Shown here piece by piece: positions 12,357 to 27,742 of a DNA stretch of 44,902 bases. The notes beneath the pieces are model-generated. The model ran no database searches and had not been told where the DNA came from. It saw only the letters and a program-made list of their open reading frames with translations. The position numbers and the translations under genes are program-made. This stretch comes from an uncultured Candidatus Saccharibacteria bacterium (GTDB lineage Bacteria; Patescibacteriota; Saccharimonadia; Saccharimonadales; CAYVSP01), in the NCBI GenBank assembly GCA_964453655.1, contig CAYVSP010000003.1, forward strand, positions 1 to 44,902. Reading direction: 5' to 3'. Numbering within the stretch: position 1 is the stretch's first letter; every line of letters begins with the position of its first letter.

Positions 12357-12420
12357 ACCTAGCAAAACCTAGCAAAACCTAACATTTGGCCGACCTGAGA
12401 AAACCTAAGAAAACCTAAGA
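12357..12420. repeat. Two pairs of tandem 10-bp repeats sharing AAAACCTA (candidate operator or iterons)
   Basis: ACCTAGCAAA occurs twice (12357-12376) followed by ACCTAACA. GAAAACCTAA occurs twice (12399-12418). The spacing is one helical turn. The site lies between the divergent methyltransferase and HTH/recombinase genes. Confidence 0.6.
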
Positions 12421-12500
12421 TTGTGCTACTATGAAAGTAACTCGGGTAAGGGACGAGTAACACAAACTATTCAAGAGCCAACACCAGTCTTGAGGTTTTA

Positions 12501-14313: not shown

Positions 14314-14347
14314 AAACCTGGTGTCCTAACCGTTAGACGATGAGGCC
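14273..14347 (-). tRNA. tRNA-Glu (anticodon UUC)
   Basis: The rc reads GGCCTCA TC GTCT AACGGTTA GGAC A CCAGG TTTTCAT CCTGG CAAT AGGAG TTCGATT CTCCT TGAGGTC A CCA. This is a cloverleaf with one G-U pair in the acceptor stem and an encoded CCA. Confidence 0.85.
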
Positions 14348-14487: not shown

Positions 14488-15468
14488 TTACCGTCTGGCA
14501 AATTTGCGGAGGAAGTAGAATTTGTGCCATAAAGCAGCGCCTATAGCAGTTGCCGTAAACATACCAATGGCATCACCTGCACCGGTATTGGTAAGTTCCG
14601 TTGTAGTGCTGCTCGGCGTAGCTGTTGGGGTGGAAGTTGACACAGTAGTGACTGTCGGCGGTGTGATGGTTTTGGTTTTGAAGTTCACCACACGCTGACA
14701 CTGCCGGCCATCTTTCCAGACCGTGCTACCATCAGCCTGTTTTACTTGTACCATTCCGGTGATAGTAAATGTGTCTTTTTCAGTACCATATTTGTGGTTT
14801 TTAGTCTGCGCATTGTCGGATGTACCGTCGCCCCACACGATCTTATAGCCAATGATGTTAGTGCCTGTACCGTTTACTTTAGCACTTACCGTACGATTTT
14901 CTTTGTTCACGAAAGCTACGTCTAGACTACTGCATGCGCCGGTTGAGGGCGGTGGCGGCTTGGTTCCACAATCCAGTCCTTGACCACCTAAGTAAGCGTT
15001 CAATAGACGGCCTGGTTCATAAGGCAAGTGTCCGCCGGGACCAGTTGGGTTTGTTCCTAGGGCTAGGTCAACTTGGTAAAAACATTTTGGCACATTAACA
15101 GTCAAGCTATATGTAGCCATCATACCGTTAGGGCCTGATGCCACATTTTGCAGCGTGGCAGATGCAAATAGTTTCTGATCTTCAAGCGGATAAGGGTTGC
15201 CCCCCTGATGAGGAACAATAAAAGAAGCCAGTACGAAATCCTTACGACAGTTACTGTCTCCCTGCACTCCCACCGTTGTGCTGATGGTGTCACCCTTGCT
15301 GTTGCTTCCTTTCGTAAAGCCTTTGCCTAGATCAGCCTGGGGAATATATTTACAGGTTGGTGTATCGCCAGGGGCGGCGTGCACTACTGCACGTACACCT
15401 GTCGCCAATACAACACCTAGTGCAAGAGCTAAAATTATGTTGCGTACTCTGTTTAAACTTTTAGTCAT
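14488..15468 (-). CDS. Secreted surface protein: conserved 4-Cys domain, PKD-like domain and LTNTG sorting signal
   Basis: The start was moved to MTKSLNRV, preceded by AAGGAGGGAGCAAAC. It has a signal peptide and a domain shared with the ORFs at 15740-16375 and 31744-32397 (GDTPTCK..GDSNC.KDFV..NVPKCFYQVDLALG..). A WGDG-containing PKD-like segment follows. The C terminus is LTNTG, then a hydrophobic helix, then RKFARR. Confidence 0.75.
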   Translation of the reverse strand: MTKSLNRVRNIILALALGVVLATGVRAVVHAAPGDTPTCKYIPQADLGKGFTKGSNSKGDTISTTVGVQGDSNCRKDFVLASFIVPHQGGNPYPLEDQKLFASATLQNVASGPNGMMATYSLTVNVPKCFYQVDLALGTNPTGPGGHLPYEPGRLLNAYLGGQGLDCGTKPPPPSTGACSSLDVAFVNKENRTVSAKVNGTGTNIIGYKIVWGDGTSDNAQTKNHKYGTEKDTFTITGMVQVKQADGSTVWKDGRQCQRVVNFKTKTITPPTVTTVSTSTPTATPSSTTTELTNTGAGDAIGMFTATAIGAALWHKFYFLRKFARR

Positions 15469-15641
15469 GTTTGCTCCCTCCTTAAATTCTCCCTCACGCC
15501 CGCTCTCAAACGAGGAATTAGTATGACTTAAATTCTGCAACGAGAACTTATAAAAGTCAATAATTTTATAATATTTTCTATTAAAGCACAAGCATTTTAT
15601 CAATGCTGTGAATTTTTCGTCATTTTGTTTATTATATGAAG

Positions 15642-15739: not shown

Positions 15740-16375
15740 TTAGCGCATGCGGCGCACAAGAACTGTACGATAGCTAAGCGCAGCGGCCACGGTAACAATT
15801 GCGAATAGTCCAGCTATATTACCAGCCCCAGTATTTATGAGAGTGGTAGGGGTTGTTGTGGGTTGGGTAGTTACTGGGGTAGCTGGAGGGGTTGGCGTTG
15901 TACATACCCCGTTACCACCCAACTTAGCGTTCAACATACGACCGGGTTCTATAGGTAAGTGGCCATTGGTACCAGTTGGTTTCATACCTAATGCAAGATC
16001 AACTTGATAGAAACACTTTGGTACATTAACAGTCATTTTGTAAGTACCGGGTTTAGCGCCTGGTAGTTGGACAAAGTCAAACAACTTCTGATTTTCAAGT
16101 GGGTAAGGGTTACCAGCTGCATTTGGGATTTCAAAAGAAGCAAATACGAAATCCTTATGGCAATTGCTGTCGCCTTCTACAATAACGTTTACGCTTACAG
16201 TATCGCCTTTTTCATTAGTGCCGGTTGTAAAACCTTTGTGTTGACCTTCTTCATAGATGAACTTGCAGTTTGGCGTATCGCCATTTGCAGCCGATACATG
16301 TGCTGAAGCACTCACGCCTATAGCTAAAACCATACCTAAAGAGGCGATCCCTAAAATTATGTTTCGCATTTTCAT
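15740..16375 (-). CDS. Secreted surface protein paralog with LINTG sorting signal
   Basis: 211 aa with a signal peptide, the same 4-Cys domain and a T/P-rich linker. The C terminus is LINTG, then a hydrophobic helix, then RRMR. Confidence 0.8.
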   Translation of the reverse strand: MKMRNIILGIASLGMVLAIGVSASAHVSAANGDTPNCKFIYEEGQHKGFTTGTNEKGDTVSVNVIVEGDSNCHKDFVFASFEIPNAAGNPYPLENQKLFDFVQLPGAKPGTYKMTVNVPKCFYQVDLALGMKPTGTNGHLPIEPGRMLNAKLGGNGVCTTPTPPATPVTTQPTTTPTTLINTGAGNIAGLFAIVTVAAALSYRTVLVRRMR

Positions 16376-16547: not shown

Positions 16548-18770
16548 CTATTTATTAACGGAAGCCCGCAAGTTGTCACTTTGAACAGAAGCCACTTTTT
16601 GAACCTTCTTAGGCGGTTTTAGCTTAGCTTTTCCAAAGCTGAAGCCAAACGTACTACCTTTGCCCTCTTGGCTTTTAAATATAATCGCTCCGCCTTGGGC
16701 CACGATGACTTTTTTGGCCATGAATAGTCCTAGCCCTGTCCCATCAGGCCGGGCTTTTTTGGCATTCCCAGCTCTATAAAACTTGCTGAACAAATGATGT
16801 TGCTCAGTTTTCGGCACACCAAGGCCGTCGTCCACAACCGTAAATTCAATCGTATCCTCTCGCTCGTTAAGATTTACGCTAATATGCCCACCACTCGGTG
16901 TGTAATAGATAGCGTTATCCACGAAGTTCATAATCACCTGCCTTATTTTTGTTTCATCCAACATAAGTATCGGGAAATTTTTGGGCTTATGATAAATAAG
17001 CTCGAGGCTTCGTTCCTTTGCGGCTTCAACAAGCTGGGATATTTCGCCTTCTATTACGTCAGCTAAGTTAGTCGGAACAGAATCAATTACAAATTTTCCA
17101 GTTTTTAACCGCGAGACATTAAGAAGGTCCGCAATTAAGTAAACCATTCGTTGTGAGCTTACAAAGGATTGCTGAAGTAGTTTTCTTTGCGTCCCGCTAA
17201 TCTTTCCAGCATCACCATCAAGCACCATACTCATATAACCTTTTACGCTTGTGAGCGGTGTACGCAATTGATGAGAGGCCATACTAATAAATTCATCTTT
17301 AGTCTCATCCAACGCCCGCAATTTTTCGTTTGTGCTGCGTAGTTCTTTTGTAGCCGCCTCTACCTTATGCTGAAGCGTAGCGCTAAACTGTTTAATTTCT
17401 TCAAATCTTAGGGCATTTTGAATCGCAACCGCTAATTCATTTGCCACTATTGTGAGCAACTTCTCGTCCTGCGCACCATAGGCGTCACCACTTTGCTTTT
17501 CACCAAATAACACATATCCGACACTCTGGTGTTGTGTACTAAGTTTGAGACTTATAGCCACTCCGTCTTTGAACAATTCTTCTCTGAGTGTTTGGTGCTT
17601 ACTTAACTCATCGGTAATAAGTATTTCTTTGTGTTGCTCCTCCATGTGCTGACTAACCTCTTTCAGGCGTGTCTGAGCTTTAAGGTCCTGCGAAAACTCT
17701 AAACGGGGATGACCGTCTTCAAGCAGTACAAACTCTACAAATGAACTCTTAAGAGCACCTGTTAGAATATGTCGCGTAGCGCTTAAAATCCGATGTAGAT
17801 CAATTTCGGCCACAATCGCACTGCTCAGCTGGTTTAGTACATCTTGTGCGTCATACGCATCTTTGAAAAAAATACGATTGGTTACAGCATCAAAACGTTG
17901 CTTTAACCAATATATTGTAGGTGTAAAAAGTAATGCAAGCGCGATGTATGTAACATGCTGCACGGCATTAATGTGGGCGTTTTTAAAAAATATGTACGAA
18001 ATTGCAAATACAGCGGCGGTATAAAGCAATACGAACGTTGTAACTATCAGCAAATAGGCAACTGAACGAGCAATTACGCTTCTAATATTGAACAAACGGT
18101 GCCTGATTATGGCTATTGTCGTCATACCCAAGAAAATAATGGTGTACAGCGGTGCTAGCGGTACAAATTGACTATTCTTAAAAAGGGCGACTGGGATAAG
18201 AACCGTAAAAATAAGCAATCCCAGCATGAGAGACAGTCCCGTTATAACGTAATTGTACTGGTTCTTTTCATGCCCACTGGCTTTATGTGATTTCTTGACA
18301 AAGCTATAAATGGCTCCAAAACTAAGTCCGATAGCAAAAAGTACAAAAATAGAAAGTCCAGGCCCCGGCAATGCTTCAATTTTTTTGTCTACAATATTGA
18401 CTCCTGTAAAAGCAAAAGGCGATAGTGCGTCTGACATAACCAGCAGAGTGGCCACGATCAAAGCGTATAGACCTACTTTCTTAATATGCAGCTCTTCCTC
18501 AGGCAAGGTATGGGCAAGCAGATAAAAAAGAAGTATTTGTATCGATGCCAAAAATATACTTAGCCTAACCCAGAGCAGTTCTGTGTTTAGTAAAGAGGGA
18601 GTTACCGAAAGGTAAACATCTATAAGCCAAAGCGTAGTAACCAAAGAAAGGGCTGTAAAAATTTGATTGGTGGCGTTTCTGCGACTATTTTTAAACACCA
18701 CAGCTGCCAAAAAACTATTGACCGCTATTGTAAAAATCAGGATTGGTAATCGAAGACCCTCAAAATTCAC
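16548..18770 (-). CDS. Sensor histidine kinase (polytopic membrane N-terminal domain, GAF-like region, HisKA, HATPase_c)
   Basis: 740 aa with about 8 predicted TM helices, H-box SHQLRTPLTSVKGY, N-box FVDNAIYYT and G-box DDGLGV..GTGLGL. It has a GTG start that overlaps the upstream gene by 11 nt. Confidence 0.88.
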   Translation of the reverse strand: MNFEGLRLPILIFTIAVNSFLAAVVFKNSRRNATNQIFTALSLVTTLWLIDVYLSVTPSLLNTELLWVRLSIFLASIQILLFYLLAHTLPEEELHIKKVGLYALIVATLLVMSDALSPFAFTGVNIVDKKIEALPGPGLSIFVLFAIGLSFGAIYSFVKKSHKASGHEKNQYNYVITGLSLMLGLLIFTVLIPVALFKNSQFVPLAPLYTIIFLGMTTIAIIRHRLFNIRSVIARSVAYLLIVTTFVLLYTAAVFAISYIFFKNAHINAVQHVTYIALALLFTPTIYWLKQRFDAVTNRIFFKDAYDAQDVLNQLSSAIVAEIDLHRILSATRHILTGALKSSFVEFVLLEDGHPRLEFSQDLKAQTRLKEVSQHMEEQHKEILITDELSKHQTLREELFKDGVAISLKLSTQHQSVGYVLFGEKQSGDAYGAQDEKLLTIVANELAVAIQNALRFEEIKQFSATLQHKVEAATKELRSTNEKLRALDETKDEFISMASHQLRTPLTSVKGYMSMVLDGDAGKISGTQRKLLQQSFVSSQRMVYLIADLLNVSRLKTGKFVIDSVPTNLADVIEGEISQLVEAAKERSLELIYHKPKNFPILMLDETKIRQVIMNFVDNAIYYTPSGGHISVNLNEREDTIEFTVVDDGLGVPKTEQHHLFSKFYRAGNAKKARPDGTGLGLFMAKKVIVAQGGAIIFKSQEGKGSTFGFSFGKAKLKPPKKVQKVASVQSDNLRASVNK

Positions 18771-20661
18771 TGTTTTTGCCCACCAAAAATCCTATAGCAA
18801 GTTTATCGAACTTTTTTGGCACCTCGACAGGCGGCATATGACCGACTTGTTCCAAGGTTTCAAGCTTGACGTTCGGTATTAGATGTATGTTTTTTTCTAC
18901 AGTCTTAAATGGCATCAGTGGGTCCTTTTTGCCCCATATAACAAAGATTGGAACTTTTATGTTTGGCAAATCGCCTGCCAAGAAAAGTTCTTTGCGCATT
19001 CCAGTAATGTGCGCCAAACGGCTGATGAATAAAATATTATGCGATGTTTGAGATAACTCATAGAAGTAATCCACGAACCTCTTGGATAAATGAAGCTTCT
19101 TATCATAAAAAACATCTCTCATAAATTTTTCTAAATTCTTATTGCTACGCACTGGTCGTAATGCGGTTTTACTTAAGAATAACGCAAGTGGCTGCAATGA
19201 GACGGGTCTAAACTGTATTGGCATATGGGTGGTAAAACCTAGCGGATTAGTTAGAACTACTTTGTGCAAATACGGTTTATTCTCTATTGCAAGCTTTAAG
19301 GCAATCCATCCTCCGAACGAACTGCCCACAATATCGATTTTATCGAATTCCATCTTCTGAATAAATTGTTCCACAATTTTCAGATAGTCTTTTACGAAGT
19401 CAATTTTATGAAAGTTGACTGTAGTGGAGCTACCGGCACCAGGCATATCAATGGCATACACGGTAAAGTACTTGGCAAAATCTGCTATATTTTGATACCA
19501 CTGAGCCCAACCAATATTTGCGCCGTGCAGCATCAAGATAGGCTTACCCTCACCCGCTACAATATAGTTGATGTTATATTTACCAACCTTAATCTGTTTA
19601 TTCTCATAGGTAACACCAAGGTTGTTGGCAAGCCTTTGTTGCGTTTTAATTGGAACCCCCGGAGTTTTACGCCTCGGCGTATGGTAAGGCGCGTGGGTAC
19701 TATATCCAAGACGGAAGAAAATCTGTGGGCTGCCTGCTATGTTCAGTTCTTTGTTAATAGCAGAACGCTGCGTCTTATTTTCGATCATTGCCGCCAAAGG
19801 CGTAATTGCCAACCCCTGTGTAGTCGCTTGAAGAGCTAAGAGTTCATAATAGCGTCCCGCTTTAAACCAGCTTTGCGGATCGTCAGTTTGGGTAGTTATA
19901 AATCCGACAGATGAACTACTTATAATTGCTTGGCAGTCCTTTTTAGCAAGAAGTTTGATGGTAGGCTTGAATTTGCGTATTAAGGCTTTAAAGATTTTTG
20001 ATTGACCATTTGACAGTCCTACCACAAAGCCTGGCATACCATCCTCGGCTTGTGTCTTAGACGGCCGAAGCCACTGGCTAAGCTCTTCAAAAAAGGCTCG
20101 ATTATTTTTATAGCTAACTGTTGCTTGGGCGTGCATCTCCGCAGTTTTTTCTTTTTGTACGTTATCAGTAATTAGTGTTACCCTGCAGCCATCAATTTGC
20201 GGGGAGCTTAGAAAATTATCCTTATGATTTTCCTTTAACACCATGTTCTTATAAGGAAGCTTGTCTGAATATCTTTTCGGTATTGCCCTGAATAACGAAG
20301 CGAGCGATTTATCCGGTTTGGCTATTTCAAACTTAATTACAATCTTACTCTTGGCCCACCTGCATTGTGTTGACAGCCCAAAATAAGATGCCGCAATTAG
20401 TATATTGGTAACGCAGCAACCTAAACTTATTTGCAAATTACGGCCAGCCGGATCAGCCTGATCTAGGGATACTCTTGGATTGCTCGTAATCGTTAGCTCG
20501 TTGTAGTTGACATGAAATTCCCATGGCTGGGTGTTGTGCGTAGAAGGCGCCAAGACGCCGTAACCCATCAGAAACTTAATCTTTTCTGCAATGTTTACAT
20601 TACTTGGAAAATCACTTTCCGCAACTGACCAAGCCTCATAATTTGCTTGTTTCGTCTTCAT
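18760..20661 (-). CDS. Fusion protein: Acg-type (tandem nitroreductase-fold) FMN oxidoreductase fused to an alpha/beta hydrolase
   Basis: 633 aa. The N-terminal roughly 330 aa carry APSTHNTQPWEF, typical of the Acg/nitroreductase family. The C-terminal roughly 280 aa carry HGANIGW and the nucleophile elbow GSSFGG plus a late His (QVGHMPP). There is an ATGA overlap with the upstream gene. Confidence 0.65.
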   Translation of the reverse strand: MKTKQANYEAWSVAESDFPSNVNIAEKIKFLMGYGVLAPSTHNTQPWEFHVNYNELTITSNPRVSLDQADPAGRNLQISLGCCVTNILIAASYFGLSTQCRWAKSKIVIKFEIAKPDKSLASLFRAIPKRYSDKLPYKNMVLKENHKDNFLSSPQIDGCRVTLITDNVQKEKTAEMHAQATVSYKNNRAFFEELSQWLRPSKTQAEDGMPGFVVGLSNGQSKIFKALIRKFKPTIKLLAKKDCQAIISSSSVGFITTQTDDPQSWFKAGRYYELLALQATTQGLAITPLAAMIENKTQRSAINKELNIAGSPQIFFRLGYSTHAPYHTPRRKTPGVPIKTQQRLANNLGVTYENKQIKVGKYNINYIVAGEGKPILMLHGANIGWAQWYQNIADFAKYFTVYAIDMPGAGSSTTVNFHKIDFVKDYLKIVEQFIQKMEFDKIDIVGSSFGGWIALKLAIENKPYLHKVVLTNPLGFTTHMPIQFRPVSLQPLALFLSKTALRPVRSNKNLEKFMRDVFYDKKLHLSKRFVDYFYELSQTSHNILFISRLAHITGMRKELFLAGDLPNIKVPIFVIWGKKDPLMPFKTVEKNIHLIPNVKLETLEQVGHMPPVEVPKKFDKLAIGFLVGKNSEF

Positions 20662-21761
20662 GACTCACCTAGCATTTTATCAAGCTTTTCTACAGCGGCC
20701 TTCTGGTCTGCCGAATCATTCCGGACTATACCAAATAAATTCTCTAGAGATAAATAATAGCGTCCACTTGGTAAAGATTGTCCTAGTATAATCTTCCTGG
20801 CTATAAAAGTACCGATGCCCCCGCCTATCATAATCGTGCTACCCAGTTGGGGACGACCTACAAGCGTACGATTAATTTCAAACAATGACTCTAGCGCTTT
20901 GGCCGGAATATACTTACTACCGACTAAATTAATGGCGTACTTAACCTTTTCGCGTTCGCCAATCTCGCTATTCAAAATCTCTTCGGGGGTATTACCTAGA
21001 AGTCCATTGAAAAGCGCTATATTTTTATCAAGATCGAAGCGTTCAACATCTATAAGAACATTGTCGCCCAAACTTGTAAGCATTACTACCGACACGCCCT
21101 CTTTTTTTGCTTTTATCCGTAGTTTTATTTTCATCTGAAAGTCATCTATCTCGTCAAAAATAACTTGCGGCTTTGTCCCGCCAAAAAAAGCGTCCAGATC
21201 CCCCTCATGAATTCCATGCTCATAAAGTTCGAGCTCAGCAAATGGATTAAGCTCCCAGATTTGCTCTGCCACAAGGTCAACCTTGGGCTTGCCAACATCC
21301 TTCAACCCCGCCCGTAATCGATTCAGGTTTGATGTAGAAATCGTGTCAAAATCTCCCAGCTTCAGAAGACCGTCCACACCGCTATATGCAAGTGTAACTG
21401 CAATGCTATTTCCGACAGACAGACCGAAGATACCTATGCACGCCTTGTTACATTTCTGTAACTCGTCTTTTGTTATGAGGTTTTGATTGCGATTTGTCCT
21501 TAAACGAAACAGCTCCGGTTCACCTATAGTTCGTAAAAGAACGCCAGACCAAGGATAGTAAATCCAGTACTGATCGACGGTTGATATATTATCCTCAATA
21601 AAAGTTTCTCGCTTGGCTTTATCGTTATGGGCTGCTGGAAAGTTAATCTCGTAAAGCTCGCCTAACTGCTCTTTGATTAGATCCACTTGTTGCCAAATTT
21701 TATGAGAAGCTTTGTACTGCTCAATCTCATCTTGTTTTAATATAATTGGGCGTTGCATCAT
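20658..21761 (-). CDS. ThiF/MoeB/E1-like adenylyltransferase family protein
   Basis: The start was reset to the ATG at 21761, which forms an ATGA overlap with the stop of the upstream gene. The Rossmann motif is IGIFGLSVGNSIA. It is followed by GDFDTISTSNLNRL, typical of E1-like enzymes. Confidence 0.65.
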   Translation of the reverse strand: MMQRPIILKQDEIEQYKASHKIWQQVDLIKEQLGELYEINFPAAHNDKAKRETFIEDNISTVDQYWIYYPWSGVLLRTIGEPELFRLRTNRNQNLITKDELQKCNKACIGIFGLSVGNSIAVTLAYSGVDGLLKLGDFDTISTSNLNRLRAGLKDVGKPKVDLVAEQIWELNPFAELELYEHGIHEGDLDAFFGGTKPQVIFDEIDDFQMKIKLRIKAKKEGVSVVMLTSLGDNVLIDVERFDLDKNIALFNGLLGNTPEEILNSEIGEREKVKYAINLVGSKYIPAKALESLFEINRTLVGRPQLGSTIMIGGGIGTFIARKIILGQSLPSGRYYLSLENLFGIVRNDSADQKAAVEKLDKMLGES

Positions 21762-23281
21762 CTTTCTTTCACGACCCACTTCTGCTTTGTGCCTGGGCGG
21801 AAATATGTTGGATCTTCGTAGTTCCAAAGCTTGATGTGAGGTTTGACGATGTTTCCGACAGTTTTATCTACTTCACGGTATTCAGAACTTTCTTCAATTA
21901 GTCGAGTGTGGATGATCGATTGAATCTTGTTTGCTAGATCTTCTTTAAGTTCAATACCATGAGCAAGCTCGATATGTATAGTCAACTGCTGACGACCTTC
22001 GCTGCTGTAATCAACCATCATAGTAAATTTACCAGTAATGGATTTACTTAATCCGTCGTCTTGTAGGGCACGACGAATCATATCTGGATAAATCAGAAAG
22101 GCGTAGTAGCTTACGCTGAAGTCATTGCGTTCATATACATACACGAATGGCAGATTCCAGGTAGTTTGGCCGATTCCGCTTGTTTGAATCTCTTTTTCTA
22201 TGTCAATACCAGCATTATTCAAGGCCTTATGCACGTCTTTTCGCTTTAAGATGCCGCCGTAGTCTTTTAGGTCGTAACGCACCAGCGGCAGTCCACTAAA
22301 AGCAGAACAGTACAAACTATGCTCTTCTTCCTCGAAGTAAAAGAGTTCGGGATCAAATTGTGCGAAGGTAGGCTGGCGGACCACCTCGGGAAATAAAATC
22401 TTAAGTTGGTTATCTTCAACTAGGCGGCGCCTGATTAGAATTGATTCTGGTGTTTCATGGGCCATCGTCCCCAAATCGACTGTACCGTAGTGATTCAACG
22501 TACTAAGTAGAGGGTTCTTTGGATTCGTCACATTGAATACATAGTCTCTAAACTTCTCGGTAAATGCCTCTGCCGAAAAAACAAAACCAATGTTATAGCG
22601 CTTCCAGTCTATGCCTTCACGCACACCGTCATCCAGAATATCCTTTAGAAAAGGCGCATACGCGCCGATAATTATTTGGTCAAAGTTCTCGCCAAGTTGA
22701 TTCACCGCATTAATAACTTCTTGCTTGTGAATACCGGGCGTTATGATGCTTAGCTCATAGCCGCCGTTTTCACCGACAAGCTTCAATGCTTCATAGGTGA
22801 ATAAGCCGCCAATCCAGGCTCCCATAGGAAAGGCCACTATATACAATGTACTTTTACTCTGTATTGAGAAGTTGTTTCTAAGATAGAGTTCAGCTGTTAT
22901 AGCATATTGCCAGTCCTGTGAATGCTCGCGCGGAAAGTAGTAAGGTTCTCCTGTTGAGCCGGAAGTAGTAGATATAACCCACTGCCCGTGACCAAATTCG
23001 CCATCCCAGCACAGCATTTTTTTGGGGTATTGTCGTAGGTAATTATCTTTGTTTATCGGCGGAATTTTGGTGATGTCTTTATAAGACTTGACTGAACTAG
23101 ATGAAAAACTATTTTTTTTCAAAAAGTCTTTGTATGCAGGTACCCTAACCGCCATTTCGTGAAATAGTTGTAATGTTCTTTTCCTGCCTTTCTCTATCCA
23201 TTCGCTCTCAGGCCGTGAATGAAAACGGTTTTGAAGCAACTCAGCGCTGCGATAACCACGTGGCAATAGTAGTCTACTCAT
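21758..23281 (-). CDS. Adenylate-forming enzyme, PaaK/coenzyme F390 synthetase-like (ANL superfamily)
   Basis: 507 aa. The AMP-binding core motif is TSGSTGEPYYF. The N-terminal layout (..VPAYKDFL..I..IPPINKDNYL..) is typical of the phenylacetate-CoA ligase family. Confidence 0.65.
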   Translation of the reverse strand: MSRLLLPRGYRSAELLQNRFHSRPESEWIEKGRKRTLQLFHEMAVRVPAYKDFLKKNSFSSSSVKSYKDITKIPPINKDNYLRQYPKKMLCWDGEFGHGQWVISTTSGSTGEPYYFPREHSQDWQYAITAELYLRNNFSIQSKSTLYIVAFPMGAWIGGLFTYEALKLVGENGGYELSIITPGIHKQEVINAVNQLGENFDQIIIGAYAPFLKDILDDGVREGIDWKRYNIGFVFSAEAFTEKFRDYVFNVTNPKNPLLSTLNHYGTVDLGTMAHETPESILIRRRLVEDNQLKILFPEVVRQPTFAQFDPELFYFEEEEHSLYCSAFSGLPLVRYDLKDYGGILKRKDVHKALNNAGIDIEKEIQTSGIGQTTWNLPFVYVYERNDFSVSYYAFLIYPDMIRRALQDDGLSKSITGKFTMMVDYSSEGRQQLTIHIELAHGIELKEDLANKIQSIIHTRLIEESSEYREVDKTVGNIVKPHIKLWNYEDPTYFRPGTKQKWVVKER

Positions 23282-23294
23282 GTTTGTCTTTCGC

Positions 23295-23363
23295 TATTCT
23301 ACACCTTAAATTATAACATGACCTTACATAAAGTTGCCATTTATAATTAAATAGTGTAGAATA
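23295..23363. promoter_or_regulatory. 10-bp inverted repeat pair in the divergent promoter region (candidate operator)
   Basis: TATTCTACAC (23295-23304) and GTGTAGAATA (23354-23363) are exact reverse complements about 50 bp apart. They lie between the ANL-operon start (23281) and the aminotransferase start (23392). Confidence 0.4.
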
Positions 23364-23391
23364 ATCTGAAGTTTTGATGTAAAAATAAACA

Positions 23392-24540
23392 ATGTCATTT
23401 ATAGCCCAACGCCTAGATTATTTCGACAGTAGCGACTTTCGCAACGCCATACATAAGCAACTACTTTTAAAGGATCCTATAGATCTCAGCATCGGTATTC
23501 CAGAGGAATTGACTGCGGAACATATTAAAGCAGCCGGCATTAAGGCTATACAGGAAGATAAAACCACCTACACCCCCGCCAATGGTTTACCCGAACTCCG
23601 TCGTGTTATAGCCGAGAAACTTGTACGTGATAATAAAATCCAGATCAATCCAGAGATGGTCACGGTTGTTCCTGGGCTCACTACCGGTCAGTTGTTGGTT
23701 TACCTGGCAATTCTGGACCCAGGAGATGAGATTATAGTACTTGATCCGTATTATCCACCGTATCCGCACTTGGCTAGCATGGTTGGTGCTCATGTGGTCT
23801 ACGTGTCAACGCTACCAACGTTTCAACCTGACCTACCTTCTATTGAGGCAAGTATTACAAACCGCACCAAAGCAATAGTTGTAAATTCACCAAATAACCC
23901 AACTGGTGCCGTATATCCAGAGACTACTCTTCGTAAAATTGCGCAAATAGCTGAAGAGCACAATCTTTTAGTAATTTCTGATGAAATTTATGAACATTTT
24001 GTATATGAAGATGAACATTTCAGCATTGGAAGCATCTATCCAAACACCATAACTCTGAATGGGTTTTCAAAGGAGTATGGAATGACGGGGTGGCGAGTAG
24101 GCTATATTGCAGGTCAATCTGACATTATTGAAGCTATTAATGAACTACTGCAATACACGGTCATGTCCAGCTCATCAATTGCTCAGCATGCAGCTTTAGC
24201 AGCGCTCACAAAAAGACCCGAAATTCTACATAAATATCGAGAAAAACGCAATTTGATGACCGCAAAGTTAACAGAGTTTGGTTATGACGTACATGGGATG
24301 CAAGGGGCATACTACTCTTTTATAAAGGCCCCTAACGACTTGACCGATATTGAATTTGTTGACAAAGCTACCGAGCACGGCTTGATCATTGTCCCTGGGC
24401 GTGCCTTTTCTCGTTTACATGGCTTCGTGCGACTGTCGTATGGTGCAGATGTAGAAACCTTAAAGCGTGGTCTCGAGGTGCTTAAGAAATTGTCTCTGCA
24501 ATATTCAGAGCAAGAAAAGATCAAATCAAGCCTGCTATGA
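23392..24540 (+). CDS. PLP-dependent aminotransferase, class I/II (aspartate/aromatic type)
   Basis: 382 aa with the NSPNNPTGAVY motif and the PLP-lysine motif FSKEYGMTGWRVGY. Confidence 0.88.
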   Translation: MSFIAQRLDYFDSSDFRNAIHKQLLLKDPIDLSIGIPEELTAEHIKAAGIKAIQEDKTTYTPANGLPELRRVIAEKLVRDNKIQINPEMVTVVPGLTTGQLLVYLAILDPGDEIIVLDPYYPPYPHLASMVGAHVVYVSTLPTFQPDLPSIEASITNRTKAIVVNSPNNPTGAVYPETTLRKIAQIAEEHNLLVISDEIYEHFVYEDEHFSIGSIYPNTITLNGFSKEYGMTGWRVGYIAGQSDIIEAINELLQYTVMSSSSIAQHAALAALTKRPEILHKYREKRNLMTAKLTEFGYDVHGMQGAYYSFIKAPNDLTDIEFVDKATEHGLIIVPGRAFSRLHGFVRLSYGADVETLKRGLEVLKKLSLQYSEQEKIKSSLL

Positions 24541-24575
24541 AAACCATGGCTATTAAGCTACGATAGTAAGTAACT

Positions 24576-24944
24576 ATGTCGAAAATTGCGATTATTGAGG
24601 ATGATTTGGCAATCAGCCAAATGTACCGTATTAAGTTTGAAGCCGAGGGTTTCAACGTAGACACGGCAGAGAATGGAAAGCTTGGTTTTGAGCTTAGTGA
24701 AAAGATGAAGCCCGACATCATCCTTCTAGATTTAATGATGCCTGAGATGCGTGGTGATGAAATGCTTGCCAAGCTACGTAAAACCGCTTGGGGCAAAGAC
24801 ATCAAAGTTATAATCTTAACTAACGTAGGTGAACAGGAAATACCTGAAGAAGTTAAGAAACTAGGTGTAGCTGCCGTTATTCTAAAGGCCGACATGACTC
24901 CACGTCAGGTCGCCGACCTCGTCAAAAAAACCCTAAAGTCATAG
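24576..24944 (+). CDS. Stand-alone response-regulator receiver domain (CheY-like)
   Basis: 122 aa. It has the acidic pair IEDD, the phospho-acceptor context IILLDLMMP and conserved T/K positions. There is no output domain. Confidence 0.88.
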   Translation: MSKIAIIEDDLAISQMYRIKFEAEGFNVDTAENGKLGFELSEKMKPDIILLDLMMPEMRGDEMLAKLRKTAWGKDIKVIILTNVGEQEIPEEVKKLGVAAVILKADMTPRQVADLVKKTLKS

Positions 24945-24966: not shown

Positions 24967-25143
24967 ATGGCAAAAACTTCGCATTTGGGTGTAGTGCAAG
25001 GAAGCGTTGAGAAACGCGGTGAGGCGTACATAGAGTACATTGAACGAGTATCGGAAATGCTGACGCAGCAATGCACCAAAAGCCTCAGCAGAGTGACTAG
25101 CTCTGCTTGGCAGCAGGCTGAGGCGTTGCGAGGTTTTGCATGA
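24967..25143 (+). CDS. Small hypothetical protein (58 aa) translationally coupled to murD
   Basis: My own translation gives MAKTSHLGVVQGSVEKRGEAYIEYIERVSEMLTQQCTKSLSRVTSSAWQQAEALRGFA. Its stop overlaps the murD ATG (ATGA at 25140-25143). It falls below the ORF-track cutoff. Confidence 0.35.
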   Translation: MAKTSHLGVVQGSVEKRGEAYIEYIERVSEMLTQQCTKSLSRVTSSAWQQAEALRGFA

Positions 25144-26453
25144 AGATTGCGATTCTTGGTTATGGTGATCAAGGCCGAGCTGCCTATGAATATTGGAACA
25201 AACCGGAAAACGAAATTGTTGTTTGTGACGCCAATGAAAAACTCGAGCTCCCAGCCGGCGTACAGTCCCACCTAGGTCCTAATCATTTAACAAATCTAGA
25301 TGAATTTGACCTGCTTATCCGCACTCCTATTTTGCACCCGCGAGATATCGTTGCAGCCAATCCTGACTCTCCTAACATCTTAGATAAAGTAACAACGGTG
25401 ACTAATGAATTCATGAGGGTATGCCCTACCAAAAACATTATTGGTGTAACAGGCACAAAAGGTAAAGGAACCACTAGCACCTTAATAGCCAAGATGCTTG
25501 AGGCCGTAGGCAAAACAGTTCATCTTGGTGGTAACATTGGCACACCGCCGCTGGATATGCTCAAGGCCGGTATCAAGGTTGACGACTGGGTCGTACTGGA
25601 GCTTGCCAATTTCCAGCTGATTGACTTAAAACAATCACCGGCTTTTGCGGTTTGTTTGATGGTAGTACCTGAACATATGGATTGGCACGGCGATATGAAT
25701 GATTACATTGCTGCTAAACAGCAGTTGTTTGCTCATCAAACTGAACTGGATACAGCAATCTACTATGGTTTAAATGCTACATCTCAACATATTGCAGGTA
25801 TTAGTCCTGGCAATAAGATTCCCTACATGAAGCACCCAGGAGCCGATATAATTGAAAACGCAGTTGTAGTAGACGGCCAAACCATTTGCAAAGTCGAGGA
25901 ACTTAAACTGCTCGGCAAACACAACTGGCAAAATATCTGCGCAGCGGTTACGGCTGTCTGGCAAATCGACAAGAACGTTAATGCAATTCGTTCAGTATTA
26001 ACCAGTTTCAGCGGCTTACCCCACCGTCTTGAACTGTTACGCGAGGTTGGTGGAGTTGCTTATTACAATGACTCTTTTGCTAGTACACCCGACGCTACTA
26101 TGGCGGCGACTGAAGCTATAACCCAGCCAAAAGTGGTAATTGTTGGCGGCTTTGAACGTGGCTTGGACCTAACGGAAATGGCCAACGCTTTTGTGAATAA
26201 CCAAAGCTCTATCCAAGAGGTATTGTGCATCGGCGCAACTGGACCACGCGCCGCCGAAGCCCTAAAAAAAGCTGGATTTAGTAAATATGAAATCCTTAAG
26301 GACAAATCAATGGATACAATTGTCCAAAAAGCCCATACCTTGGCTAAACCTGGCGACGCCGTGATTTTATCACCAGGCTTTGCTAGCTTTGATATGTTCA
26401 AAAACTTTGTGGAGCGTGGCATAAAATTTAAAGAAGCAGTTGAAGCATTATGA
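25140..26453 (+). CDS. murD: UDP-N-acetylmuramoyl-L-alanine--glutamate ligase (MurD; possibly the L-Glu-adding MurD2 type)
   Basis: 437 aa with the Mur ligase P-loop GVTGTKGKGTT, plus LELANFQL and GLPHRLE motifs typical of MurD. Confidence 0.85.
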   Translation: MKIAILGYGDQGRAAYEYWNKPENEIVVCDANEKLELPAGVQSHLGPNHLTNLDEFDLLIRTPILHPRDIVAANPDSPNILDKVTTVTNEFMRVCPTKNIIGVTGTKGKGTTSTLIAKMLEAVGKTVHLGGNIGTPPLDMLKAGIKVDDWVVLELANFQLIDLKQSPAFAVCLMVVPEHMDWHGDMNDYIAAKQQLFAHQTELDTAIYYGLNATSQHIAGISPGNKIPYMKHPGADIIENAVVVDGQTICKVEELKLLGKHNWQNICAAVTAVWQIDKNVNAIRSVLTSFSGLPHRLELLREVGGVAYYNDSFASTPDATMAATEAITQPKVVIVGGFERGLDLTEMANAFVNNQSSIQEVLCIGATGPRAAEALKKAGFSKYEILKDKSMDTIVQKAHTLAKPGDAVILSPGFASFDMFKNFVERGIKFKEAVEAL

Positions 26454-27742
26454 GTAAATATACTTCTTTCATTTTTGAGAATTATGAATTTGACGCTGGC
26501 ACTAAAACGCTGCAACTCCACTACAGCATGGGCGGGATAGTCAATTTTACAGAGACTTACAAGTTCGATTTTGATTTTGTTAACTATAGCCAGGAGGCGC
26601 TTGATATAGCTTTGCAAAGCTTATTTATCGTGGCTGGAGTCTCATATTACAAGGCTTATTTACCAGCTAATATTGATATCCACCTGCCGCTAAAACTTGA
26701 CCAAGCAAGTATGAACTTCTTTGCAAAAACTTACCAAAAGGGTTTAGGGGAATTCTTTTATGCTAACAACCTAAACCCCGACACACCCATTAAATTTCCA
26801 ACAAACAACGCTGTCCCAATACCAATAGAAACTATTAAAAATAAAGGTCTCCTCGTAGGTATCGGTGGCGGTAAAGATTCCTTATTAAGTGTTGAGCTTT
26901 TACGAAATCAGTCCAAAGTGGCAACCTGGAGTGTCGGCCATAAAGCACAGCTCACGCCGCTTATACAAACAATTGGATTACCTCACTATTGGGTAGAACG
27001 AAGAATCGATCCTCAGCTTTTAGAATTAAAAAAAGACCCTGAAGCATACAACGGCCACATTCCTATTTCTGCAATTTTTGCTTGCGTTGGTTCCATAGTA
27101 GCCCTACTAAATGGGTACCAAGATGTAGTGGTCTCGAATGAAAGCTCAGCAAGTGAGCCCAACCTAACTTACGAAGGCGTGCCGATTAATCATCAATACT
27201 CAAAATCTCTAGAGTTTGAACAAGACTTTCAGCATTTTCTAAGTTGTTATTTTGGAGAGGGCCTGCGCTATTATTCATTTCTACGCCCCTTGAGTGAATT
27301 ACATATTGCTAAACTTTTTGCACGATTGGGTTTTGAGAAATATAAAGATACTTTTAGCTCCTGTAACCGAGCATTTACACAAGATAGTAACCATATGTTC
27401 TGGTGCGGGGAATGCCCAAAGTGTGCTTTCACCTTTTTAGCGCTCACCCCTTTTGTAGATCGAGATAAACTTGAGAGACTGTTTTGGGGTAAGAACCTAT
27501 TACTAGATCAACAATTAGACCAAACCTACCGTCACTTGCTTGGTATAGAAGGTGACAAGCCGCTGGAATGCGTAGGTGAAATTAAAGAATCACGCACAGC
27601 GATGCGCCTAGCACAGAAAATATATCCAGAATTGTCAAAGTATAAATTTGAGATACCATCAGATTATGATTATCTGGCGCTCGGTCTGCATAGTATGCCA
27701 AACGAGTTAGCTACAATTCTTAGAAATAGTGTCCAAAATTAA
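26450..27742 (+). CDS. PP-loop-type ATP-utilising protein coupled to murD; candidate MurL-like glycopeptidyl-glutamate epimerase
   Basis: 430 aa with a PP-loop-like motif GIGGGKDS and the C-terminal Cys motif CGECPKC. There is a 4-nt ATGA overlap with murD. The MurL assignment rests on synteny and ATP-motif logic, not on an alignment. Confidence 0.45.
   Translation: MSKYTSFIFENYEFDAGTKTLQLHYSMGGIVNFTETYKFDFDFVNYSQEALDIALQSLFIVAGVSYYKAYLPANIDIHLPLKLDQASMNFFAKTYQKGLGEFFYANNLNPDTPIKFPTNNAVPIPIETIKNKGLLVGIGGGKDSLLSVELLRNQSKVATWSVGHKAQLTPLIQTIGLPHYWVERRIDPQLLELKKDPEAYNGHIPISAIFACVGSIVALLNGYQDVVVSNESSASEPNLTYEGVPINHQYSKSLEFEQDFQHFLSCYFGEGLRYYSFLRPLSELHIAKLFARLGFEKYKDTFSSCNRAFTQDSNHMFWCGECPKCAFTFLALTPFVDRDKLERLFWGKNLLLDQQLDQTYRHLLGIEGDKPLECVGEIKESRTAMRLAQKIYPELSKYKFEIPSDYDYLALGLHSMPNELATILRNSVQN

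What the first reader, a model, noticed from the sequence alone, without database searches (positions are those of the whole stretch)
16548..24944. Translationally coupled operon (ANL ligase, E1-like enzyme, nitroreductase/hydrolase fusion, sensor kinase) with divergent aminotransferase and orphan receiver
Four minus-strand genes are chained by overlaps:
- ATGA at 21758-21761
- ATGA at 20658-20661
- an 11-nt overlap at 18760-18770

The genes are:
- a PaaK/F390-synthetase-like adenylating enzyme (TSGSTGEP)
- a ThiF/E1-like adenylyltransferase
- an Acg-type nitroreductase-fold protein (NTQPWEF) fused to an alpha/beta hydrolase (GSSFGG)
- a polytopic GAF-HisKA-HATPase kinase

A class I aminotransferase and a receiver-only response regulator are transcribed divergently.

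ThiF plus nitroreductase is the domain pair found fused in Rv1355c/MoeY-type proteins. It also recalls E1-like and FMN-dehydrogenase partners of peptide-modifying pathways. Here, though, there is no YcaO and no obvious precursor peptide. Two different carboxylate-activating enzymes are present, and the hydrolase fusion and direct coupling to a kinase are unusual.

The locus plausibly makes or modifies an amino-acid-derived small molecule or a protein C terminus. That product could be tied to a signalling circuit.
Basis: partly seen in the sequence, partly recalled or inferred. Interest (0 to 1): 0.75.

Follow-up and report, generated by a model that had tools for sequence, protein, structure and literature searches.

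The report
Oxazolone-like pathway wired to sensor kinase
This Saccharibacteria operon joins a two-component sensor to an unusual version of the enzyme set that makes N-acyl oxazolone lipids in mycobacteria, and the same module is conserved across the ultrasmall Patescibacteria, so it may be a self-made chemical signal with its receptor.

Summary
Four overlapping minus-strand genes (PaaK-like ANL ligase, ThiF/E1-like enzyme, Acg-type nitroreductase fused to an alpha/beta hydrolase, 7TM-GAF histidine kinase) face a class I aminotransferase and a receiver-only regulator.

The adjacency is not chance. In 41 related Patescibacteria loci with enough flanking DNA:
- the ligase sits beside the E1-like gene in 40 and the kinase in 39;
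- an aminotransferase or a Leu/Trp-type amino-acid dehydrogenase is present in at least 35, never both;
- the nitroreductase is present in 28.

Fusions link the parts: DH~ligase~E1, ligase~E1, E1~NTR and E1~NTR~hydrolase.

Rv1355c is TrzS, and with OxzB and TyzBC it makes N-acyl oxazolones by ATP-dependent cyclisation and O2-dependent desaturation. The window's E1 shares that family's signature motifs and catalytic residues.

The defining acyl-CoA N-acyltransferase is absent here. The ANL ligase probably makes the amide directly.

I read the locus as a CoA-independent variant of the oxazolone pathway coupled to its own sensor. The chemistry and the signalling role are inferred, not shown. It is a new variant of a known kind.

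The parts
21758..23281 (-). PaaK-like ANL adenylate-forming ligase (507 aa). Proposed CoA-independent acid-activating and amide-forming step.
   Evidence: NCBIfam PaaK 1.6e-7. PDB 4r1l 2.5e-5. AF2 model pLDDT 82.9; Foldseek PaaK1 2y27 E 1e-18, ClxA amide ligase 9s3l E 1.5e-12. Invariant T106-S-G-S-T-G111, Y265-G-T, D340, R385, K499 in 15 orthologues. 41-83% identical across 60 Patescibacteria loci.
20658..21761 (-). ThiF/E1-like adenylating enzyme of the Rv1355c (TrzS) family (367 aa from the ATG at 21761). Proposed ATP-dependent cyclase.
   Evidence: NF005901 Rv1355c family 1.6e-85, 288 bits, model positions 25-350 of 722; next-best family 68 bits. 60 of 60 orthologues hit the same model. Invariant R91, G113, G117, D139, N145, N147, R148, K160, D206, K211, R215, and no conserved Cys. 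GLSVG, YPW, DFD..SNLNR, DD..K..R and ERFDL motifs shared with proteins that pass the Rv1355c cut-off.
19657..20661 (-). Acg-type nitroreductase-fold flavin-dependent oxidase domain (residues 1-335 of the 633-aa fusion). Proposed C-alpha/C-beta desaturase.
   Evidence: NF047509 Acg family 212-214 bits, above the cut-off of 199; also Rv1355c C-terminal half 90-92 bits. Fold match to the M. smegmatis Acg homologue 2ymv, E 6.9e-15, TM 0.77. Invariant H42-N-T-Q45, W47, R130, S132, R317, H327, P329, R330 in 33 fusion orthologues.
18760..19611 (-). Alpha/beta-hydrolase domain (residues about 351-633 of the fusion). Closest to meta-cleavage-product C-C hydrolases. Proposed ring-opening or transfer step.
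   Evidence: Abhydrolase_1 3.6e-23. HsaD 7zjt 2.8e-24 by sequence and 5jzb E 4e-17 by fold. Catalytic Ser448, Asp580 and His608 invariant in 33 orthologues.
16548..18770 (-). Sensor histidine kinase: N-terminal 7TM region, divergent GAF-like domain, HisKA, HATPase (740 aa, GTG start).
   Evidence: HisKA_7TM 3.9e-9, GAF_3 1.1e-4 (below cut-off), HisKA 1.6e-14, HATPase_c 1.4e-24. Of 37 orthologues, 35 hit HisKA_7TM, 12 GAF_3, 8 GAF_2 and 6 GAF. H500 box invariant. Present downstream of the enzymes in 39 of 41 loci.
23392..24540 (+). Class I (Asp/aromatic-type) PLP aminotransferase, transcribed divergently. Replaced in other lineages by a Leu/Trp-type amino-acid dehydrogenase.
   Evidence: Aminotran_1_2 4e-69. 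T. thermophilus AspAT 1.3e-79 and P. horikoshii aromatic aminotransferase 2e-61. AT in 27 and DH in at least 8 of 41 loci, never both. The DH matches Leu DH 3vpx 8e-67 and Trp DH 5b37 1.6e-59. A DH~ligase~E1 fusion exists, P0228.
24576..24944 (+). Receiver-only response regulator (122 aa), the likely partner of the kinase.
   Evidence: Response_reg 5.7e-20. Adjacent to the aminotransferase in most Saccharimonadia loci, or immediately downstream of the kinase in others such as L009/L043, L042, L046, L051, L058, L065 and L067.
23282..23391 (.). 110-bp AT-rich divergent intergenic region between ligase and aminotransferase. Presumed promoters.
   Evidence: Sequence read. No conserved small ORF found there.

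Best explanation
The locus is a conserved Patescibacteria module. It makes an amino-acid-derived small molecule with a CoA-independent variant of the oxazolone-synthetase pathway, and it carries its own two-component sensor.

Proposed steps:
1. The aminotransferase (a Leu/Trp-type dehydrogenase in other lineages) interconverts an amino acid and its 2-oxo acid to supply one building block.
2. The PaaK-like ligase adenylates a carboxylic acid and joins it to an amino group. This gives an N-acyl amino acid and takes the place of the acyl-CoA N-acyltransferase (OxzA/TyzA/TrzA).
3. The ThiF-like enzyme adenylates the amino-acid carboxylate, so that the amide oxygen closes an oxazolone ring, as in TrzS and TyzB.
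4. The Acg-type flavoenzyme desaturates C-alpha/C-beta with O2.
5. The fused serine hydrolase opens or transfers the activated ring, or trims the product.
6. The 7TM-GAF kinase senses the product or a precursor and phosphorylates the receiver-only regulator.

Shown: gene order, overlaps, family assignments, intact catalytic residues, co-conservation and fusions. Inferred: substrates, product, direction of step 1, the role of the hydrolase, and the sensing link.
For: Family assignment.
- E1 belongs to the TrzS family: 288 bits to the Rv1355c model against 68 bits for ThiF, and 60 of 60 orthologues hit it.
- It is 38-43% identical to proteins that pass the Rv1355c cut-off, and it shares their GLSVG loop and other signature motifs.
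- All ATP and Mg residues are invariant and there is no conserved Cys.
- The best PDB sequence hits are TcdA cyclodehydratases.
- The NTR is an Acg-type FDO. Its closest structure, 2ymv, is the same one reported for the TrzS FDO domain (PMC12856293).

Functional linkage.
- Fusions occur in every combination: DH~lig~E1 (P0228), lig~E1 (P0231, L054), E1~NTR (L032, L034, L059), NTR~E1 (L010), E1~NTR~ABH (P0125/L008, P0233) and E1~ABH (P0225).
- Co-conservation in 41 loci: E1 40, kinase 39, AT or DH at least 35 and mutually exclusive, NTR 28.
- Genes in the module are tightly spaced.

Chemical plausibility.
- PaaK-fold ligases that form amides without CoA are known: ClxA and NatL2 (PMC12519233).
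- Variable tailoring genes are typical of small-molecule pathways. A SAM methyltransferase replaces E1 in L038 and L067, and an FAD monooxygenase is inserted in L029, L030, L037 and L069.

Signalling parallels.
- DH-ligase-methyltransferase-kinase-receiver resembles PhcB/PhcS quorum sensing (PMC8578825).
- The TrzS authors note the AHL-like shape of oxazolones and the signalling genes next to trzAS (PMC12856293).
Against: - No OxzA/TyzA/TrzA-like N-acyltransferase is present in the cluster, in the other window ORFs scanned, or in the related loci. Amide formation by the ligase is only an analogy.
- The NTR is absent from about a third of related loci (13 of 41). Desaturation is therefore not universal, or the gene lies elsewhere in those genomes.
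- The NTR domain scores higher on the Acg/Rv3131 model than on the Rv1355c C-terminal half (212 against 92 bits). It may not be an orthologue of the TrzS oxidase.
- Known oxazolone pathways have no hydrolase, aminotransferase or dehydrogenase.
- The known oxidases need O2, whereas many Patescibacteria are anaerobes.
- The aminotransferase could be a housekeeping AspAT kept nearby by synteny.
- The receiver has no output domain, and no ligand-kinase link has been shown.
- No chemistry has been measured.
Confidence: 0.5

Rival explanations
1. The locus is a catabolic or salvage route for a hydrophobic or aromatic amino acid, induced through the two-component system. The amino acid goes to a 2-oxo or aryl acid, then to a CoA thioester or adenylate, with later flavin oxidation and C-C/ester hydrolysis.
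For: An aminotransferase or Leu/Trp-type dehydrogenase, a PaaK-like ligase and a meta-cleavage-type hydrolase are all classic catabolic parts. The best fold match for the ligase is phenylacetate-CoA ligase.
Against: - No other paa or beta-oxidation genes are present in any of the 60 loci.
- The E1-like enzyme, present in 40 of 41 loci and sometimes fused to the ligase, has no role in such a route.
- The hydrolase is present in only about 10 of 60 loci.
- Patescibacteria have minimal catabolism (background knowledge).
Confidence: 0.15
2. The enzymes covalently modify a cell component rather than make a free metabolite, for example by acylating a peptidoglycan stem peptide, a lipid or the kinase/receiver itself. 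The kinase monitors that modification.
For: In Saccharimonadia the module lies next to murD and murL/murI. The ligase is unusually conserved (52-83% identity across classes), as expected for an enzyme with a macromolecular partner. Sortase-anchored surface proteins often follow the kinase gene.
Against: - The mur neighbourhood is lineage-specific and is lost in Paceibacteria-type loci, while the module persists.
- The E1 family's only characterised members act on small N-acyl amino acids (PMC12856293, PMC10404671).
- No carrier or target gene is co-conserved.
Confidence: 0.1
3. The locus modifies a peptide or protein C terminus. This could be E1-like activation of a ubiquitin-like protein or of a RiPP precursor, with an FMN dehydrogenase as in azoline/azole pathways.
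For: The ThiF fold is used by MccB, PaaA and the TOMM C-proteins. PaaA appears weakly among the PDB hits (6e-4). Nitroreductase-fold dehydrogenases partner such systems (background knowledge).
Against: - No YcaO and no ubiquitin-like or ThiS/MoaD gene is present.
- Intergenic gaps are 0-170 bp, and every ORF of 20 aa or more in the region overlaps one of the long genes at least in part.
- No small ORF is co-conserved in 60 loci.
- No Cys is conserved in the E1.
- The E1 clusters with the small-molecule TrzS family at 288 bits.
Confidence: 0.06
4. The locus carries out sulfur-carrier or cofactor chemistry (MoeB/ThiF for molybdopterin or thiamine) or tRNA ct6A formation (TcdA).
For: Weak matches to the MoeB, ThiF and TcdA models at 30-68 bits. 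TcdA proteins are the top PDB sequence hits.
Against: - Scores are four-fold lower than for the Rv1355c family.
- No MoaD/ThiS, rhodanese or Zn-Cys motifs are present.
- None of the Moco or thiamine partner genes occurs in the window.
- The linkage to a ligase, an NTR and a kinase is unexplained by these roles.
Confidence: 0.02

Closest known systems
TrzAS (Rv1356c-Rv1355c) N-acyl tryptazolone pathway of mycobacteria and Rhodococcus (PMC12856293)
   Same: - The E1 is in the same ThiF-like cyclase family: 288 bits to the Rv1355c model, with shared GLSVG, YPW and ERFDL motifs and the conserved adenylation Asp (D206 here).
- It is paired with an Acg-fold flavin-dependent oxidase.
- Both loci lie beside signalling genes (c-di-GMP genes in M. 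tuberculosis, a kinase and receiver here).
   Different: - The cyclase and oxidase are separate, overlapping genes here. Fused forms exist in some relatives.
- There is no TrzA N-acyltransferase; a PaaK-like ANL ligase stands in its place.
- An aminotransferase or dehydrogenase and an alpha/beta hydrolase are added.
- A 7TM kinase and a receiver are hard-wired to the enzymes.
- The host is a Patescibacterium with a reduced genome.
OxzAB (Pseudoalteromonas rubra) and TyzACB (Rv2336-Rv2338c) tyrazolone pathways (bioRxiv 10.1101/2020.06.11.147165; PMC10404671)
   Same: The logic is the same: N-acyl amino acid, then ATP-dependent ThiF-type cyclisation, then nitroreductase-fold desaturation. As in TyzBC, the two enzymes are separate adjacent genes.
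   Different: - Sequence similarity is more distant. The PRK14851 and PRK08223 models, which I only guess to be OxzB- and TyzB-like, score about 65 bits.
- Those pathways depend on acyl-CoA or acyl-ACP N-acyltransferases.
- They have no sensor kinase, hydrolase or aminotransferase.
PaaK-fold adenylate-forming ligases, including the CoA-independent amide/ester ligases ClxA and NatL2 (PMC12519233)
   Same: Two-domain ANL fold, P-loop TSGSTG and C-terminal catalytic Lys. The best structural matches are PaaK1 and BT_0428, followed by ClxA.
   Different: - Only 14-17% identity over the structural alignments.
- About 70 residues longer than PaaK.
- Not recognised by Pfam AMP-binding.
- Substrate and acceptor are unknown.
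Signal synthase plus cognate membrane kinase operons: PhcB/PhcS/PhcR (PMC8578825), and CqsA/CqsS and LqsA/LqsS/LqsR (background knowledge)
   Same: Small-molecule biosynthetic enzymes are encoded in one operon with a polytopic sensor kinase and a regulator. LqsR is likewise receiver-type. Two relatives (L038, L067) carry a methyltransferase-kinase-receiver arrangement like phcBSR.
   Different: There is no sequence relationship between the synthases. The signalling role here is inferred only from gene linkage.
Rv3131-DevS/DosT neighbourhood of M. tuberculosis: an Acg-family protein next to a GAF kinase (background knowledge)
   Same: An Acg-family nitroreductase-fold gene sits directly beside a GAF-containing histidine kinase.
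   Different: DevS is a soluble haem-GAF kinase with a LuxR-type regulator, DosR. Here the kinase is a 7TM protein, the GAF domain is divergent and the regulator has no output domain.

Membership tests
Oxazolone synthetase systems (OxzAB / TyzACB / TrzAS) | ThiF-like ATP-dependent cyclase of the Rv1355c/TyzB/OxzB clade with an intact adenylation site | tested here: met
   NF005901 at 288 bits over the ThiF half. 60 of 60 orthologues hit it. Motifs are shared with proteins scoring 674-801 bits, above the cut-off of 476. R91, D137, D139, N145, R148, K160 and D206 are invariant or nearly so.
Oxazolone synthetase systems (OxzAB / TyzACB / TrzAS) | Nitroreductase-superfamily flavin-dependent oxidase fused or adjacent to the ThiF enzyme | tested here: met
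   The Acg-type domain starts in an ATGA overlap with the E1 stop codon. NF047509 at 212 bits, above the cut-off of 199. Fold match to 2ymv. E1~NTR fusions occur in relatives. Caveats: absent in 13 of 41 related loci, and scores higher on the Acg/Rv3131 model than on the Rv1355c C-terminal half.
Oxazolone synthetase systems (OxzAB / TyzACB / TrzAS) | Adjacent acyl-CoA/ACP-dependent N-acyltransferase (OxzA/TyzA/TrzA; AHL-synthase/FeeM-like fold) | tested here: not met
   No such domain in any cluster gene, nor in the other window ORFs of 150 aa or more that were scanned. None is co-conserved in the 60 loci. A PaaK-like ligase occupies that position.
Oxazolone synthetase systems (OxzAB / TyzACB / TrzAS) | Product is a 2-alkyl-4-arylidene-oxazol-5(4H)-one | not testable with these tools
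   Needs expression or in-vitro reconstitution with LC-MS.
ANL superfamily, PaaK-like subgroup | Two-domain adenylate-forming fold with P-loop (A3), A5, A7 and A8 motifs and the A10 lysine | tested here: met
   Foldseek match to PaaK1 at E 1e-18, probability 1.00. Invariant TSGSTG, YGT, D340, R385 and K499.
ANL superfamily, PaaK-like subgroup | Forms a phenylacetyl-CoA (acyl-CoA) thioester | not testable with these tools
   NCBIfam PaaK equivalog scores are 20-30 bits against cut-offs of 646-700, so this is not an orthologue. The acceptor is unknown.
MoeB/ThiF/E1 activators of ubiquitin-like or sulfur-carrier proteins | Partner ThiS/MoaD/Ubl protein with a Gly-Gly C terminus, and conserved Cys (thioester, persulfide or Zn CxxC) | tested here: not met
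   No such gene in the cluster or in the related loci. No conserved Cys in 60 E1 orthologues. MoeB and ThiF models score 30-68 bits.
TOMM / azol(in)e RiPP cyclodehydratase-dehydrogenase systems | YcaO cyclodehydratase and a precursor peptide next to the E1-like and FMN dehydrogenase genes | tested here: not met
   No YcaO domain in any gene. There is no free intergenic space and no conserved short ORF.
Two-component system (HisKA-type kinase plus receiver) | H-box histidine, HATPase N/G boxes, and a receiver with an acidic pocket | tested here: met
   HisKA 1.6e-14, HATPase_c 1.4e-24, Response_reg 5.7e-20. H500, N615/N619 and the G boxes are invariant. The receiver has D9/D10 and D52 by eye. 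That the two are cognate is inferred from adjacency in other lineages.
GAF-domain sensor kinases | Recognisable GAF fold between the membrane region and HisKA | tested here: inconclusive
   GAF_3 at 23 bits, below the cut-off of 27, but covering profile positions 4-129 of 129. Of 37 orthologues, 12 hit GAF_3, 8 GAF_2 and 6 GAF, best E 2e-6.

The most novel reading that the evidence does not exclude
The module is a Patescibacteria-wide chemical signalling circuit. An oxazolone-type or N-acyl-(dehydro)amino-acid signal is made without acyl-CoA by the aminotransferase/dehydrogenase, ligase, ThiF-cyclase and oxidase. It is sensed by the co-encoded 7TM-GAF kinase and relayed to a receiver-only regulator. 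This would be the first self-produced signal and receptor pair described in these host-dependent ultrasmall bacteria, and the first physiological role assigned to bacterial oxazolones.
Probability: 0.25. Interest if true: 0.85.

Novelty: new variant of a known kind. Interest (0 to 1): 0.66.

Why it matters
Patescibacteria have stripped-down genomes with very little biosynthesis. Even so, they keep this five- to six-gene module, and its ligase is 52-83% identical across most of the classes sampled (one Roizmanbacteria locus is 41%). A retained small-molecule pathway tied to a sensor is a concrete lead on how these epibionts sense themselves or their hosts. No paper in the searchable library addresses it.

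The physiological role of bacterial oxazolones is also still unknown. A lineage in which the cyclase-oxidase pair is hard-wired to a kinase gives a direct way to test the proposed signalling role.

The module also predicts new enzymology:
- a PaaK-fold ligase acting as an N-acyl-amino-acid synthetase;
- an FDO-hydrolase fusion;
- interchangeable methyltransferase or cyclase steps that cap the carboxylate.

Tried and rejected
- Chance adjacency: rejected by 60 loci with the same module.
- Precursor peptide: every ORF of 20 aa or more between 16.4 and 25.1 kb overlaps one of the long genes at least in part. Intergenic gaps are 0-172 bp. No small family is co-conserved apart from antisense shadows of the conserved genes.
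- YcaO/TOMM, MoeB/ThiF sulfur transfer and TcdA: rejected on scores and missing partners.
- My first sample of four loci (L003, L004, L005, L007) suggested that the NTR was peculiar to this genome. The wider survey corrected this: the NTR is present in 28 of 41 loci (against 36, 55).
- The unknown 433-aa protein that sits between NTR~E1 and the kinase in L010 is not a divergent ligase (hhalign probability 0.2%) and has no Pfam, NCBIfam or PDB match.
- A scan with the 60-sequence E1 alignment failed because no stretch was conserved enough.
GAF was assessed with Pfam on the orthologues instead.
- Literature searches found nothing on this module: Saccharibacteria with phenylacetate-CoA ligase or with ThiF; oxazolone with Patescibacteria; and term look-ups in PMC10633639 and PMC11665869.
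- The E. coli MoeB sequence used as a guide was recalled from memory. The residue equivalences were re-checked against HMMER alignments to TcdA structures and against bona fide Rv1355c-family proteins.

Full report
**1. What is in the sequence**

The window has about 43% G+C and comes from a Candidatus Saccharibacteria-like genome. The closest public locus is a Saccharibacteria MAG, and the best ligase homologues are labelled Saccharimonadales.

Four minus-strand genes are chained by overlaps, which I read directly:
- the ligase stop TGA (21760-21758) overlaps the E1 start ATG (21761-21759);
- the E1 stop (20660-20658) overlaps the fusion-protein ATG (20661-20659);
- the kinase GTG (18770) lies 11 nt upstream of the end of the fusion gene's stop codon (18760).

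The aminotransferase and the receiver-only regulator are transcribed divergently from a 110-bp AT-rich spacer.

**2. Domain assignments**

*Ligase.* It has no Pfam match. It resembles PaaK by NCBIfam and by PDB sequence search. An AlphaFold model (pLDDT 83) matches PaaK1 and BT_0428 at Foldseek E about 1e-18. The next hits include the CoA-independent amide/ester ligase ClxA, then GH3 and McbA amide synthetases. The ANL motifs and the C-terminal lysine are invariant in the orthologues.

*E1-like protein.* It matches the NCBIfam 'Rv1355c family' model at 288 bits over model positions 25-350. ThiF, MoeB and TcdA models score 68 bits or less.

*Fusion protein.* It has an N-terminal Acg-family flavin-oxidoreductase domain (212 bits, cut-off 199). 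That domain also matches the C-terminal half of the Rv1355c model. The C-terminal alpha/beta-hydrolase domain is closest to the meta-cleavage C-C hydrolases HsaD and BphD. A confident model (pLDDT 91) matches 2ymv (an Acg homologue) and HsaD. Ser448, Asp580 and His608 are invariant in 33 orthologues.

*Kinase.* It has a HisKA_7TM region, HisKA and HATPase. The GAF assignment is sub-threshold in this protein. Of 37 orthologues, 12 hit GAF_3, 8 hit GAF_2 and 6 hit GAF.

**3. The module is conserved across Patescibacteria**

A pattern search with a ligase alignment returned 60 genome loci. They are labelled Saccharimonadia, Paceibacterota, Adler-, Kaiser-, Doudna-, Lipton-, Gottesman- and Roizmanbacteria. 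Ligase identity to the window protein is 41-83%.

I mapped the window proteins onto these loci. In the 41 loci with at least 2.5 kb upstream and 5.5 kb downstream:
- the E1-like gene is present in 40;
- the 7TM kinase is present in 39;
- the nitroreductase is present in 28, and in about 10 of all 60 loci it is fused to, or followed by, the hydrolase;
- either the aminotransferase (27) or an ELFV-family dehydrogenase (at least 8) is present, never both.

The dehydrogenase is closest to leucine and tryptophan dehydrogenases and is usually translationally coupled to the ligase.

Flanking genes differ between classes. murD, murL/murI and folD occur only in Saccharimonadia. Gene order is sometimes permuted, for example E1-DH-ligase-NTR...kinase. 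The nitroreductase is inverted in six loci. The set nevertheless stays together.

Fusions link every neighbouring pair:
- DH~ligase~E1 (P0228, 1242 aa);
- ligase~E1 (P0231, L054);
- E1~NTR (L032, L034, L059);
- NTR~E1 (L010);
- E1~NTR~hydrolase (P0125/L008, P0233);
- E1~hydrolase (P0225).

This refutes chance adjacency. It also shows that coupling to the kinase is the rule, and that the hydrolase fusion is the lineage-specific extra.

**4. The link to known biology**

Rv1355c has now been characterised as TrzS. [quoted passage not shown] It converts N-acyl tryptophan, made by the acyl-CoA N-acyltransferase TrzA, into an N-acyl tryptazolone. The steps are ATP-dependent cyclisation followed by O2-dependent desaturation (PMC12856293).

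The same enzyme pair makes tyrazolones in M. tuberculosis (TyzB and TyzC with TyzA; PMC10404671) and in Pseudoalteromonas rubra (OxzB with OxzA; bioRxiv 10.1101/2020.06.11.147165).

The window's E1 belongs to this family:
- it is 38-43% identical (E down to about 4e-64) to proteins that pass the curated Rv1355c cut-off at 674-801 bits;
- it shares their unusual GLSVG nucleotide loop and the YPW, DFD..SNLNR, DD..K..R and ERFDL motifs;
- the residues that bind ATP and Mg in ThiF-type enzymes are invariant in 60 orthologues, and no cysteine is conserved;
- D206 occupies the position of the adenylation aspartate, whose D217A substitution abolished TrzS cyclase activity. I infer this equivalence from the motif; I did not check it against the M. 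smegmatis sequence.

The closest solved structure to the NTR domain, 2ymv, is the one the TrzS authors report for their FDO domain.

**5. How it most likely works**

Making an oxazolone from a free acid and an amino acid needs two carboxylate activations. One forms the amide and one closes the ring. The known pathways pre-pay the first with acyl-CoA.

Here the N-acyltransferase is absent and a PaaK-fold ligase is always present. In some lineages that ligase is fused to the cyclase. PaaK-fold ligases that couple their acyl-adenylate directly to amines or phenols are known (ClxA and NatL2; PMC12519233).

I therefore propose the following order:
1. the ligase makes an N-acyl amino acid;
2. E1 cyclises it;
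3. the FDO desaturates it;
4. the hydrolase, which has an intact triad, opens or transfers the activated ring.

The mutually exclusive aminotransferase and dehydrogenase show that an amino-acid/2-oxo-acid interconversion belongs to the pathway. They do not show its direction. Either the amino acid is made for acylation, or a 2-oxo acid is made as the acyl donor. The second option has a precedent in the aminotransferase plus adenylating-enzyme pairs of arylpyruvate-derived natural products (background knowledge).

Variable tailoring genes fit a small-molecule pathway:
- a SAM methyltransferase replaces E1 in L038 and L067, an alternative way of capping a carboxylate;
- an aromatic-hydroxylase-type FAD monooxygenase is inserted in four loci.

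**6. The kinase link**

The kinase gene follows the last enzyme gene with gaps of a few nucleotides in most loci. The receiver either follows it or sits beside the aminotransferase.

The simplest reading is that the kinase senses the pathway product or a precursor, through its membrane region or its cytoplasmic GAF-like domain. This parallels operons in which a signal synthase is encoded with its membrane kinase, such as PhcB/PhcS (PMC8578825) and CqsA/CqsS or Lqs (background knowledge). It also fits the suggestion that oxazolones are signal-like (PMC12856293).

This step is inference from linkage only.

**7. Rivals**

- A catabolic route explains the aminotransferase/dehydrogenase, ligase and hydrolase. 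It does not explain the near-universal E1 or the ligase~E1 fusions.
- Modification of a cell-envelope or protein target is not excluded.
- Peptide or protein C-terminal chemistry, sulfur transfer and ct6A formation are disfavoured. Their partner genes are missing, no cysteine is conserved, no precursor ORF exists, and the family scores are much lower.

**8. Novelty**

The cyclase-oxidase core is a known kind. The following are not described in the papers I could search:
- the CoA-independent ligase front end;
- the amino-acid/2-oxo-acid step;
- the FDO-hydrolase fusion;
- the obligate coupling to a two-component system;
- the distribution across Patescibacteria.

I rate the locus a new variant of a known kind. 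The proposed chemistry carries moderate confidence and the signalling role low-to-moderate confidence.

Noticed in passing
window 15740-16375(-), 14488-15603(-), 31744-32397(-): Three paralogous secreted proteins with a signal peptide and a C-terminal L[IT]NTGAG motif followed by a hydrophobic stretch and an Arg-rich tail, which is a sortase-type sorting signal. They have no Pfam hit. Members of the same family lie just downstream of the kinase gene in about 21 related loci, on either strand.
   Followed up: partly
window 10600-14347: A large serine recombinase (12667-14313, +) whose 3' end overlaps tRNA-Glu (14273-14347, -). It lies beside an MvaI/BcnI-type restriction endonuclease (10600-11385) and an N4/N6 DNA methyltransferase (11382-12140). 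This may be an integrated mobile island at a tRNA gene.
   Followed up: no
window 25140-27742; related loci L011-L069: murD is followed here by a MurL-type UDP-MurNAc-L-Ala-L-Glu epimerase (NF041275, 334 bits, below its cut-off of 700). In related Saccharimonadia loci, a MurL homologue and a 215-aa family that carries the Pfam Asp/Glu racemase domain in three checked loci alternate beside murD, never both. This suggests two interchangeable routes to D-Glu in peptidoglycan.
   Followed up: partly
P0228 (1242 aa), P0231 (863 aa), L054:3024-5690, P0225 (654 aa): Multi-enzyme fusions of the module in other Patescibacteria: dehydrogenase~ligase~E1, ligase~E1, and E1~hydrolase without the nitroreductase.
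   Followed up: partly
L038:2899-3621, L067:9481-10188: In two loci a SAM-dependent methyltransferase (Methyltransf_11/31, 5e-22) sits between the ligase and the kinase in place of the E1-like gene. In L067 this gives dehydrogenase-ligase-methyltransferase-kinase-receiver.
   Followed up: partly
L029:1296-2534, L030:2498-3727, L037:2568-3797, L069:6761-7957: An FAD_binding_3 (aromatic-hydroxylase-type) monooxygenase is inserted between the aminotransferase and the ligase in four Saccharimonadia loci. This hints at an aromatic substrate.
   Followed up: no
L062 (CAVRAP010000021.1, 372-kb contig): A 64% G+C contig binned as Actinomycetota carries ligase-E1-NTR (ligase 57% identical to the window's) without the kinase. 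This may reflect horizontal transfer out of Patescibacteria, or misbinning.
   Followed up: no
L010:2985-4286: A 433-aa protein with no Pfam, NCBIfam or PDB match lies between an NTR~E1 fusion and a 7TM kinase, where the ligase would be expected. It is unrelated to the ligase by profile comparison.
   Followed up: yes
window 5-524(-): A tmRNA gene (Rfam RF00023, 48.9 bits, just above its gathering score of 47) lies at the left edge of the window.
   Followed up: no
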